64,000 nucleotides of DNA from Eledone cirrhosa (lineage: Eukaryota): assembly GCA_964016885.1 (NCBI GenBank), contig OZ024743.1, positions 176,390,001-176,454,000 on the forward strand, in the 5' to 3' direction. Below the pieces are notes generated by a model. The model searched no databases. It was not told the origin of the DNA and was given only the letters and a program-made list of their open reading frames with translations. Made by a program: the position numbers and the translations under genes. Below, in pieces: positions 1-33,717 of the stretch. Numbering within the stretch: position 1 is the stretch's first letter; each line of letters begins with the position of its first letter.

Positions 1-12
1 ATAAAAATCCCA

Positions 13-255
13 ATGAACCTCTACCAAAAACTAAAAAAGGATTTTAAGGAGGACGTAGGACCACCCTCTGTCAAACCCATAAACCGCGTCCTACTAAAAA
101 GCTTTCCCCCTCCCCTTCCCCTCCCCAACACAACTCCAAACACCCCAACCCCACCACACACCGACGACCCCACACCACCACAAGACACCCCTTCACCCAA
201 CACCCCCGACCCCATGGAAGTCGTGCAACCCGAACCCCGGGAAGCGGAAAGGTAG
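13..255 (+). CDS. C-terminal part of Tx1 ORF1 protein (partial)
   Basis: FKEDVGPP..PINRVLLK and the Pro/Thr-rich end MEVVQPEPREAER* are homologous to the ORF1 end of copy E (23141-23404). Confidence 0.8.
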   Translation: MNLYQKLKKDFKEDVGPPSVKPINRVLLKSFPPPLPLPNTTPNTPTPPHTDDPTPPQDTPSPNTPDPMEVVQPEPREAER

Positions 256-288
256 GTCTCTACACTCTCCTTTGGCTCTGCCGCCCAC

Positions 289-3200
289 ATGGATGTGTTA
301 AGAGTAGGATGTTTGAATGCACGTGGCCTGGGCTCAACTTGGAAGCAAGCAAAGCTTCTAAATGACCTCAGGTCATGTAGTATAAATGTAATGGTTATCT
401 GTGAGACTCGAATCAGCGTCATGCGGCAGCTGGCCCCCACCTTCGATGACTTTGAGGTGCATGCATCTCTCTGTCAACCTGGAGGTGGGGGTGGGGTTGT
501 CGTGCTGCTGCAAAAACACCTGGGTCTTGCCGTACAGGTTGTGCACTCGGACCCGGAGGGTCGTTTGTTGGTGCTAGACGTTGGCAGTAGTGAAAGTGCG
601 GCCTTGAGACTGGTCGCCGTCTACTCCCCTTTCGGAGCTGAACGGCCCGACTTCTTCCAGCGTTTGGAGACTTTTCTGGGAACGTCGCGTTCCCTGCTTC
701 TAGCGGGGGATTGGAATGACATCCTAGATGCACGTTGGGACTATGCAGGAGCATGTCCTAATAGAGGGGGGTGTAACAGCCTCAAGGGGTTACTCGACCG
801 TTTTAACTTGGTCGATAGATATCGACTAGATTTTCCAACTGTGCCTACCTGGACTTGGAGAAACCACAGTGGTCAATCTAGATCGTACTTAGATAGATTC
901 TTAGTTAGAAGTAAGGATAGGGACATATTAAGCTGTCCAGAAATGCGCACGGTTGGCTACACGGATCACAAATTAGTGACCTGCGTGGTCAATCTCGAGA
1001 AAACACATAGACAGGGTCCCGGTTACTGGAAACTTAATTTGTCTTTACCGGCAAAAGAGACTTACAGAAACCGGATTAGCAGATTAGTTAAGGAGAGGTT
1101 GACGGGTGCAATCGTCAACAACCGATGGTGGGCATCTCTCAAAAGAGAGATTAGAACAGAATCAATAAGTTATAGCAAGATGTTAGCTGCCAATAGGAAT
1201 AGAAACGAGAAAGAATTAACAGGTAAATTAGAAGAGGCAATCAAGAGCGAAGATGTGGCCAGAGTGCTGGCATCGAGGACGGCCTTGAACCAGTTTTTCG
1301 ATGCAAAGCATGAAGGCTGCGTCATTCGAAGTAAAATACGTGCTCTAGGTAATGAGGGGGCCAAAGCCGTTGGATGGGCCCGCGTGACAGAAGCTAAAAG
1401 TGGAAATCGATCCACCATCCGGTCGTTGCAAGACGAAGATGGACGAGTGATCCGGGAGCCTAAGCAGATGTGCGAGGCCTTTCAAAAGCACTTTGCCCGA
1501 TTGTTCGGGGGAGGCGAGGGTCCGGGCCGGGGCGTGGATTTCGGTCCATACCTCGACGGCCTGCCGCGTCTCTCGAACAAAGAGGCGGAGTCCTGCGAGG
1601 GACCAATCTCGGCTGATGAGATCGGAGATGCGCTGAGCCAATGCAGCAGACGCAAATCTCCAGGTCTCGATGGTATACCTTACGAACTTTATTTAGCAAT
1701 GCCGGTCTTCTTCTCCGAACTCCTCGAAGCGGTCTACTGCAATTGGCAGCAGAACGGGAGAATTCCTTGTTCTGTAGCCAAGGGCGTAGTCACGCTGGTG
1801 AGGAAGGACGAGAACAAGGGGGATAGTATAAATAATTTTCGGCCCATAACCCTGCTAAACACAGAGTTAAAGATTTTGGCCAAGGTGTTAGCAAAGAGGT
1901 TGGCGCTTGTCGTGGGTGGCCTGGTGGGAGATGCGCAGACATGTGCTATCCCATCCAGGTCCATTCACGATAACCTCCACCTCATGCGATACATCATAGA
2001 GAGGGTTGGCAACAAACCCGGCTTCGGTGGGGCCCTGATCAACTTGGATCAGTCTAAGGCCTTCGATAGGGTCGACCATGGTTACCTGGATGCGGTGCTA
2101 GCGGCGGCTGGGTTCGGTCCTGTTTTCAGAGGCTGGATCACTGCCCTACATAGCAACCACATCTGTTCTAGGATCAAGGTGAACGGCTACCTTTCGAAGC
2201 CGTTCGAAATCACACGATCCATTCGACAGGGGTGCCCTCTCTCCTCCCTTCTGTACGTATTGACTCTCGAGCCTTTACTGAGGAAGTTGGAGTTGTTGCA
2301 GGGTATCCCCCTGGAACCAGGATTGAGCAAAGCGGTGTCGGCCTACGCCGATGACGTAACAGTAATGGTATCAACCGACTCGGAGATCGAGGCGATCGGT
2401 ACCTTACTGGAGGAGTACGAAAGGTTGTCAGGAGCGAAACTGAACCGGGAAAAATCCATCGGGCTGCAACTCGGAACGTGGAGAGGCAGACCGATGCCTC
2501 CCGATGGTGTCGTCGGACACTGGACGGAGGGCCCGGTAAAGTTGCTTGGGGTCTGGTTTGGACCGGACCTCCAGGTGGAAAAGAACTGGAACGAGGTTAC
2601 GAACAAGGTGTTTGCACTAACCCAGAAATGGGCCAAGTGTAAGCTGTCCCTAAAAGGCCGGGCGGAGGTGGCGAACATTTACATAGCGTCCGTCACTTAC
2701 TACCGCCTGACTGTCGTGCCTTGCCCTAAGGAAACACTCACCACCATGGAACGCATGCTCTTCCAATTTCTTTGGAAGAAGCGTCCTCCTATGGTGAGAA
2801 GATCCATCTGCTGCCAACAACCTTCGAAAGGAGGGCTGGGGATGCCGTGGTTGATGATGCGTAGGCACGCATTAAGGCTACGGCACCTACAGGTATTCCT
2901 CACTGGTCAACCGGTGTGGGCTCCGTTCGTGAAACGAGCCTTTCCGAGACTCGTCTCACTCACCGAGCTACAGTCCTGGGTCAAGCAAAGATCCGGAAAA
3001 CTGGGAGACTGGCACACTGAGTGTGCTCAGGCGCTCAGGGCTCTCTGGCAAGCGGGCCGGGCCATCGGTGGAGAATCCACCTCATCATTCTATAGAGGGC
3101 TGGTGGCTAGCAGGGGCGATGACACCCTTGGAGAGTCGCTGGACATGGAAGAAGACGAACTGGCCAGCCTGTTCGGTAGGACTTTCAGCCCAGGACCAAT

Positions 3201-32347: not shown

Positions 32348-32496
32348 CATTAGTTCACTCTCTATACATCTGCATATATATATAATTTTCTATCTGTCAC
32401 TCTCTCTCTCTCTCTCTCTCTCTCTCTCTCTCTCTTCGCGCACACACATATATATATGTGTGTGTGTGTTTAAATATATATATATATATATATATT

Positions 32497-32814
32497 AGAA
32501 TTTAGCTTCGAACATAGCTTTATACATATATGTATTTGAATTTCGTATTTCTAAAGAAATATGGCATGTTTACACATTTAGAAGGGTCATAGCTATGAAA
32601 AACGCACTGGCAGCTAACGTCACCAGGCGGTGCCCGGCAGAAGCAAGGAGGAAAATCGTCGATGCATTTCGACGTCTATTGGTATTCGCCAGGACGCTCT
32701 CTCCCGCTCTTGCAAATGCCGGACTTCGAAGACAGGCGAAAATATATAGTGTTTTTGTCTATGTAAATGAGGTAATCAATCTTATTTGCATATGAAGCTG
32801 TATCAGTTGGCTCA
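32497..32814 (-). mobile_element. PLE-like remnant between (AT)n tracts with degenerate HHR (32657-32696)
   Basis: Minus strand CGTC-CTGGCGA-..-GAAATGCATC-GACG: stem I CGTC/GACG, palindromic stem III, one core mismatch. Confidence 0.5.
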
Positions 32815-32963
32815 TATATATATATATATATGTATGTATGTATATGTATACCTACTCCCTTTGTAGGTATAGTTATCTGTGTCTATATTTATCTACATAG
32901 CTAGCTTTCGACAAGAACTACAATTACAACAGCAAACTACAAATCCTTATAACAGTTATTGAC

Positions 32964-33717
32964 AGATAGATAGATAATTTTCTTTTTACTTGCCACCAGG
33001 GCATCAAAAAGTGGGACAAGTACAATGGGGGGAGTTTACATAAAAAGGCGTCCTCAATATGGAGGAGGCAATAACAAGATATAAAAATAAAATAAAATAT
33101 AACAAAAATAAATTTAATAACAAAATCCTCAATAGAGAGGAGGCGCCTTGGGGGGTCGCACACACCCCCTAACAAAAGTGTGCAACCCTTCTCCTCAGGA
33201 GCACAGAGAGAAGGTGCTCCCTTGATCTTTTATCTTTCTCACCTACAGTCTGATGTAGAGTGAAGGCCCATTCACACGGGCCATTCTCGCCACTTTCACC
33301 ATTCTTTCATAAAAACGGCTGGGGTGCAGCACCTCTCTCTCCATCCTGATCCTTCTTCCGAAATGATATCGGAAGAAACGGACCAGTTGTTGGCCAGAGA
33401 GAAAGGTGTCTGACCTCAGTCCTTTCAGACGCGTCCACCATACAACCTCTGTCGCCATGGCTATTACGCACAGAAACACCGCTTCTCCTTCGTTTTTGAA
33501 GAGGGGAGACGGCTTGATCGTTACAATAGACTGCGTGGTAAACCAGATCAGTCCCACCCTTGACAGCAGTTGTTCGACATAGCCCCACAGATCGGCAATG
33601 CCCGAGCAGTATACCAATGCGTGTGCAACGGTTTTCTCGTCGCACATGCATCTGGGACAGATCTTTTTCGAGGGGTCCCTATTCGGGCGCCCGTGTCTGT
33701 AGAGCCTTTCTCGAACG
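32964..33717 (-). mobile_element. Tx1 copy G, 3' fragment on the minus strand
   Basis: ETVAHALVYC...ARVNGPSLYIRL*. 3'UTR of D/E type. (GATA)n on both flanks. Confidence 0.92.

What the first reader, a model, noticed from the sequence alone, without database searches (positions are those of the whole stretch)
1..33717. (GATA)n/(ATCT)n-targeting Tx1 LINE family that builds head-to-tail arrays
Seen: copies A-G end in AATAAA(A)G(A/G)AA(CAT)ATCTATCT (slightly variant in G) rather than poly(A). Every visible 5' junction (3969, 6409, 18498, 21399, 27156, 33717) abuts ATCT-type repeats, including the opposite-strand copy G. Different subfamilies (A; B/F; D/E/G; C) with different truncation points are stacked in one orientation, which argues for serial insertion rather than tandem duplication. 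Known: several Tx1-clade families are sequence-specific (e.g. Kibi and Koshi for TC/TTC repeats). Inference: each insertion leaves a target for the next. I do not recall a GATA-specific family being described.
Basis: partly seen in the sequence, partly recalled or inferred. Interest (0 to 1): 0.75.

Follow-up and report, generated by a model that had tools for sequence, protein, structure and literature searches.

The report
GATA-targeting LINE lineage with target switches
An abundant, young family of jumping genes in this (likely octopus) genome sits one way round inside GATA/ATCT short repeats and stacks head-to-tail there, likely because its enzyme cuts that repeat and each insertion leaves the repeat in place, while close sister families sit in ATT repeats or in a 72-base repeat, which would let one test how such elements change target.

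Summary
Confirmed. The seven copies are L1-group (Tx1-like) APE-RT LINEs with no poly(A). In the genome, 92 of 109 5' junctions have an ATCT-repeat 8-mer within 25 nt (truncated, unstacked copies 40 of 52), 0 of 109 on the other strand, background 0.22%. Target duplications with unique bases are present, so the 5' repeat is target, not only a templated tail. Neighbouring window copies are 72-87% alike, each with a 95-99.9% relative elsewhere: serial insertion. About a third of copies have a same-strand neighbour. The ATCT lineage is one clade among (ATT)n-tailed relatives (17 of 26 ATT, 0 of 26 ATCT at 5' ends); a subfamily within it sits at one site of a 72-bp minisatellite in a TTAA-ended element. 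Likely mechanism: endonuclease nick in the AGAT strand plus priming on an ATCT RNA tail; their shares are untested. Microsatellite-targeting Tx1 families are known (Kibi, Koshi, crocodilian); I found no GATA target in print, but Repbase/Dfam were not checked and Tx1 membership lacks a named reference. The scan noted this family, and both sisters, repeatedly on other DNA.

The parts
1..3940 (+). Copy A: 3' part of a full-length 5.8-kb LINE that starts 1,856 nt left of the window; ORF1 ends at 255
   Evidence: closest other copy 99.9%
289..3726 (+). ORF2 of copy A, 1145 aa, open: APE endonuclease, reverse transcriptase, zf-RVT
   Evidence: Pfam; best solved relative human L1 ORF2p E 1e-50
3941..3968 (+). 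(ATCT)4-ATAT-(ATCT)2 tract between A and B; (ATCT)nATATAT recurs 5' of A (target duplication)
3969..6398 (+). Copy B, 5'-truncated, internal deletion, frames broken
6409..6671 (+). Copy C: 3' UTR fragment whose first 93 nt are an inverted duplicate of its own downstream part (fold-back, 2 mismatches); ATCT tracts at 6399-6408 and 6672-6686
18499..21366 (+). Copy D, 5'-truncated; 5' flank ATGT-ATGT-ATCT
21367..21398 (+). (ATCT)8 tract between D and E
21399..27129 (+). Copy E, full-length, frames broken; ORF1 with weak zinc-knuckle match
27156..32327 (+). Copy F, full-length 5' end of another type, internal deletions; ATCT/TC tracts at 27130-27155 and 32328-32347
32976..33718 (-). Copy G, 5'-truncated, opposite strand; (ATCT)3 on its own strand at both sides (32964-32975; 33732-33743)
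50335..51665 (-). Old, distant relative (44% aa) without an ATCT tail; several of its genomic relatives end in (ATT)n

Best explanation
These are copies of a young L1-group (likely Tx1-clade) LINE lineage that sits in one orientation in (ATCT)n tracts, likely because its APE endonuclease nicks the AGAT strand and reverse transcription is likely primed on an RNA that ends in one or more ATCT units paired to the nicked DNA. Shown: strand-specific ATCT tracts at both ends, no poly(A), target duplications of about 7-25 nt that begin within the repeat, independent origin of stacked neighbours. Inferred: the nick on the AGAT strand (from target-primed reverse transcription), an RNA-borne ATCT tail (the 3' end reads ATCT where the duplicated target reads ATTT, ATAT or CTCT), protein reading of bases 5' of the duplication, and stacking as a by-product of leaving ATCT on both sides of every copy. 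The nick phase inside the 4-mer cannot be read from these data. The ATCT target likely arose from an (ATT)n-targeting ancestor, and one subfamily likely moved on to a 72-bp minisatellite.
For: 5' junctions: 92 of 109 (D 30/33, A 15/26, F 19/22, E-type 5' ends 28/28), 0 of 109 opposite strand, background 71 of 31,920; truncated and unstacked 40 of 52. Not limited to top hits: 113 of 162 reverse-strand E/D-type 5' ends have TATCTATC within 10 nt. Read the other way, 12 of the first 21 (ATCT)7+ tracts on C1 are flanked by a copy, and 2 more by an unlisted 5' end type. Duplications reaching 7+ nt beyond the pure repeat: 20 of 81, shuffled pairs mean 2.6, max 5. No poly(A) in 111 locus records (some copies twice). 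ATCT within 8 nt 5' of the duplication in 6 of 11 tightly placed sites against 3.8%. Sister control: ATT lineage 17 of 26 ATT, 0 of 26 ATCT; ATCT lineage 0 of 109 ATT. Stacking: 35 of 109 upstream, 36 of 85 downstream same strand, 1 of 85 opposite. Tree: ATCT rows one clade, SH-aLRT 97. Endonuclease catalytic motifs intact in A. Tx1L endonuclease is sequence-specific in vitro (PMC1950540, passages).
Against: 17 of 109 junctions lack the 8-mer; some have no ATCT-like sequence at all (L096, L101, L128, L138, L144, L153), which may be off-target insertions, target deletions or later breaks. A-type is only 15 of 26 (21 of 26 by a 10-of-12 score). 47 of 81 copies give no readable duplication. The segment that aligns to the L1 hairpin loop is almost the same in ATCT, ATT and minisatellite lineages, so no obvious specificity residue stands out. 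In 5 of the 11 tightly placed sites the bases 5' of the duplication are not ATCT. Loci were best hits to window copies, so old copies are under-sampled. The large tree is the quick search only. No biochemistry or RNA data.
Confidence: 0.72

Rival explanations
1. Targeting is set mainly by the RNA: a loosely specific endonuclease nicks A/T-rich or slipped DNA, and only nicks that pair with the read-through 3' tail are extended, so the tail acts as a guide and changing the tail changes the target.
For: Tail equals target in all three lineages; no poly(A); ATCT overwrites near-matches in L009, L044, L090, L156; hairpin-loop segment nearly unchanged across targets; an A-type copy entered the minisatellite host at a lone TCTATC (L156).
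Against: Bases 5' of the duplication cannot pair with the tail, yet hold ATCT in 6 of 11 sites against 3.8%; 12 of 16 copies with a one-unit 3' run still have an ATCT 8-mer in the 5' flank; the endonucleases of ATCT and ATT lineages are only 58% alike with about 45 fixed differences.
Confidence: 0.2
2. The ATCT repeats are made by the element (templated tail, slippage or template switching at the 5' end) or arrays arise by tandem duplication; there is no target preference.
For: L013-L016 are tandem duplicates with one truncation point; full-length 5' flanks could be co-transcribed; a large share of long ATCT tracts lie beside copies.
Against: Duplications that include unique bases; truncated unstacked copies 40 of 52; window neighbours 72-87% alike with closer kin elsewhere.
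Confidence: 0.05
3. Random insertion followed by survival in repeat-rich, low-constraint DNA (as proposed for Drosophila Waldo-A/B).
For: The genome is very rich in simple repeats.
Against: Only 1.1% of background windows that hold any short repeat contain the ATCT 8-mer; the association is strand-specific, nucleotide-adjacent and seen in copies 98-99.9% alike; the sister lineage shows another repeat.
Confidence: 0.02

Closest known systems
Kibi (TC)n, Koshi (TTC)n of teleosts; crocodilian Tx1 families in (TTCC)n/(TTTC)n (PMC4494074, passages and section 15; PMC3812793, passages)
   Same: APE-type non-LTR element of the L1/Tx1 group inserted in microsatellites
   Different: Target is (ATCT)n/(GATA)n, not listed in the passages read; host is likely an octopod; no close protein relative among fish elements retrieved (24% to a Danio pol-like protein); very high copy number
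Xenopus Tx1L in the piggyBac Tx1D; crocodilian Tx1-Mar (PMC4494074, passages; PMC1950540, passages)
   Same: The minisatellite subfamily sits at one site inside a TTAA-ended inverted-repeat element; tandem serial insertions are described for SINEU-3
   Different: Here the transposon-targeting subfamily lies inside a microsatellite-targeting clade at 85-88% RT identity
Waldo (ACAY)n, Mino (AC)n, Dong (TAA)n (PMC3812793, passage); Togen (TG)n (PMC4640811, passage)
   Same: Microsatellite as target
   Different: Other clades (R1, R4, NeSL; clade names partly recalled) and other repeats
Human L1 ORF2p
   Same: Best solved relative; same APE-RT layout
   Different: L1 primes on poly(A)/T-tract; no poly(A) here

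Membership tests
APE-type non-LTR retrotransposon, L1 group | ORF2 with N-terminal APE endonuclease, RT, C-terminal cysteine motif; no RNase H | tested here: met
   Pfam; invariant residues; best PDB match L1 ORF2p, far above R2
APE-type non-LTR retrotransposon, L1 group | 5' truncation and target-site duplications | tested here: met
Tx1 clade | RT groups with named Tx1 elements to the exclusion of L1 | tested here: inconclusive
   No named Tx1L, Kibi or Koshi sequence was returned. The Danio pol-like protein BAC82613.1 (recalled as from the 2004 site-specific set, unverified) lies in the same unresolved fork, not beside the lineage; human L1 was not in the tree.
Tx1 clade | ORF1 with CCHC zinc knuckle (recalled feature) | tested here: inconclusive
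   CX2CX4HX4C motif visible; Pfam zf-CCHC below cut-off, E 0.03 and 0.29
Microsatellite-specific elements (Kibi/Koshi type) | Target in over 20% of flanks (criterion of PMC4494074) | tested here: met
   84% of 5' flanks
Microsatellite-specific elements (Kibi/Koshi type) | Target is (TC)n, (TTC)n, (TTCC)n or (TTTC)n | tested here: not met
   Target is (ATCT)n
Microsatellite-specific elements (Kibi/Koshi type) | Sequence-specific nicking by the endonuclease | not testable with these tools
   needs a nicking assay
An already catalogued Repbase/Dfam family | Match to a curated entry with this target | not testable with these tools
   No such library here; PMC13282606 lists 13 recently active L1-Tx1 families in Octopus vulgaris, word 'target' absent from its text

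The most novel reading that the evidence does not exclude
One LINE lineage has switched target twice in a short time, (ATT)n to (ATCT)n to a 72-bp transposon minisatellite, mainly by changing the flank it carries on its RNA, with little change in the endonuclease loop: RNA-templated retargeting of an APE retrotransposon, and the main keeper of this genome's GATA repeats.
Probability: 0.2. Interest if true: 0.75.

Novelty: new member of a known kind. Interest (0 to 1): 0.45.

Why it matters
How APE-type LINEs recognise microsatellites is described as poorly understood (PMC3812793, passage). This genome holds three closely related, recently active lineages with three targets and open reading frames in two of them (copy A; L356), so endonuclease swaps and tail swaps can separate protein from RNA contributions. 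It also shows that over half of long GATA tracts sampled here border a LINE, which matters for microsatellite markers and genome expansion in this group.

Tried and rejected
No RNA holder listed for the 3' end; laying four contig sets showed the stretch in three coded organisms but skipped the repeat, so nothing on tails or expression. Metagenome scan for flanks of the 40%-identity relatives found nothing. Protein atlas gave no answer. Three protein searches and two cluster look-ups returned no named Tx1L/Kibi/Koshi. Nick phase within ATCT could not be fixed because tail and target match. 5' junctions of the older ATT-like families were too diverged to score; only their tails were read. Rows dropped before the 109: L045 (segmental duplicate), L157, L158 (fetched twice), L113, L135 (junction fell in a gap of my reference), L078, L014, L015 (tandem duplicates), own-window loci, and copies running off their locus. 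L189c was labelled ATT by 3' UTR likeness only; its tail is cut. The idea that the minisatellite subfamily is merely carried by its host transposon was weighed and not favoured: host ends are 85% alike (median of 45 pairs), the LINE ends 99.8%. Kojima and Fujiwara 2004 and the Tx1L endonuclease paper were not held; supplements of PMC4494074, whose figure lists more targets, could not be seen.

Full report
Observation. The window (G000:C4:176,390,001-176,454,000; 3.0-Gb assembly) holds seven related copies at the stated places. Copy A encodes an open 1145-aa ORF2 with APE endonuclease, RT and zf-RVT, closest in the PDB to human L1 ORF2p, and its 5' end lies 1.86 kb left of the window after (ATCT)6 with an open 625-aa ORF1. 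The closest named protein is from Argonauta hians, 63%, so the host is likely an octopod (inference).

Target. I fetched best-hit copies of four subfamily ends and mapped their junctions. An ATCT-repeat 8-mer lies within 25 nt of 92 of 109 5' junctions, never on the other strand, against 71 of 31,920 windows from 40 evenly spaced 10-kb stretches, and 1.1% of those windows that hold any short repeat. The test that matters, truncated copies with no stacked neighbour, gives 40 of 52. Whole-genome patterns agree: 113 of 162 reverse-strand E/D-type 5' ends have TATCTATC within 10 nt. From the other side, 12 of the first 21 (ATCT)7+ tracts on C1 are flanked by a copy and 2 more by another 5' end type. 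A 3' end pattern gives 19,570 hits, with some double counts and including the subfamily described below. Against: 17 junctions miss, six of them without any ATCT likeness, and the youngest (A) type scores only 15 of 26.

Junction anatomy. No record has poly(A); all 111 records (some copies twice) continue with ATCT or ATAT-ATCT. Where the tract is imperfect, a duplication is readable: 20 of 81 copies match 7 or more bases beyond the pure repeat, shuffled pairs 2.6 on average, at most 5 (three of the 20 are periodic or tandem cases). Clean cases run about 7-25 nt at most and start within the repeat. In L009, L044, L090 and L156 the 3' end reads ATCT where the 5' copy of the target reads ATTT, ATAT or CTCT, so at least part of a unit likely comes from the RNA. 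In 11 sites with a single 3' unit, 6 have ATCT within 8 nt 5' of the duplication against 3.8% in background; those bases cannot pair with the tail in target-primed reverse transcription, which points to protein recognition, but 5 sites lack it.

Arrays. Adjacent window copies are 72-87% alike while each has a 94.7-99.9% relative among the fetched loci, so they were inserted one by one. Copy A carries (ATCT)nATATAT on both sides and is younger than B, so it entered the tract 5' of B. Genome-wide, 35 of 109 copies have a same-strand lineage tail just upstream and 36 of 85 a same-strand copy just downstream, 1 of 85 on the opposite strand. That is of the order expected if tracts beside copies are a large part of all targets, so no extra mechanism is needed. 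L013-L016 show that tandem duplication also builds arrays.

Sisters. The random stretches held relatives at 53-65% aa that end in (ATT)n. A young one has ATT at 17 of 26 5' junctions and ATCT at none; the ATCT lineage has ATT at 0 of 109. This control removes the objection that anything in this repeat-rich genome abuts such tracts. In a quick RT tree the ATCT rows form one clade (SH-aLRT 97) with ATT-type rows on two successive outer branches (one of these labels is inferred), so ATT is likely ancestral. A further subfamily (L356, open ORF2, 79% to A; 343 pattern hits) is followed by a 72-bp minisatellite in 30 of 30 copies chosen on its 3' UTR alone and starts after the same ACATCT of that repeat in the copies whose 5' end was read. 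The repeat lies in an element with TTAA-ended inverted repeats whose copies are 85% alike while the LINE is 99.8%. It falls inside the ATCT clade. The endonuclease segment that aligns to the L1 hairpin loop hardly differs among the three; about 45 other positions separate ATCT from ATT.

Mechanism. Most likely the endonuclease nicks the AGAT strand, the freed end pairs with an ATCT-ending RNA, cDNA is made, and a staggered second nick leaves a duplication, so ATCT remains on both sides. Junction facts are shown; nick, pairing and their relative weight are inferred. The main rival puts the specificity in the RNA tail.

Known and new. Tx1-clade families in (TC)n, (TTC)n, (TTCC)n and (TTTC)n and in DNA transposons are described (PMC4494074, passages and section 15; PMC3812793, passages; PMC4640811 and PMC8869645, passages). 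None of these passages names GATA/ATCT as a target, and searches (listings only) showed no paper that does; PMC13282606 (passages) counts active L1-Tx1 families in an octopus without discussing targets. Repbase, Dfam, the 2004 founding paper and supplements were not seen, so absence from print is not established. It works like Kibi/Koshi; Tx1 membership is likely but unproven here. Earlier notes of this scan describe the same family and both sisters on other DNA; I had reached each result before reading them and do not count them as support. Verdict: real, well supported, a new target for a known kind, with value as a test system; interest 0.45.

Noticed in passing
L355-L398 (e.g. G000:C1:4.22-4.26 Mb): Subfamily inside the ATCT clade that sits at one site of a 72-bp minisatellite in a TTAA-ended inverted-repeat element; almost all copies long (29 of 30 over 1.5 kb), arrays of several copies.
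   Followed up: partly
window 6409-6607: Copy C begins with a 93-nt inverted duplicate of its own downstream sequence, unlike other C-type copies; looks like cDNA fold-back rather than twin priming. L323 shows a similar inverted 3' piece after an ATCT tract.
   Followed up: partly
window 6918-7103 and about 15 other places; L294-L301 flanks: An abundant SINE-like repeat ends CCTTGTGCC..AAAAGTAGAAAC(ATT)n, resembling the 3' end of the ATT-type LINE, and often stands directly before or after it.
   Followed up: no
window D versus E; L031-L050: D and E types are about 98-99% alike in sampled 5' stretches but 87% at the 3' end; several distinct 5' UTR/ORF1 types (A, E, F, another at L015/L341/L343) share the lineage: likely recombination or 5' replacement.
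   Followed up: no
L041, L107, L155, L173, L346; L162, L175: Two other repeats regularly border ATCT tracts and supply targets to the lineage.
   Followed up: no
window 45721-46649: Tandem duplication of about 484 bp at 98-99% identity.
   Followed up: no
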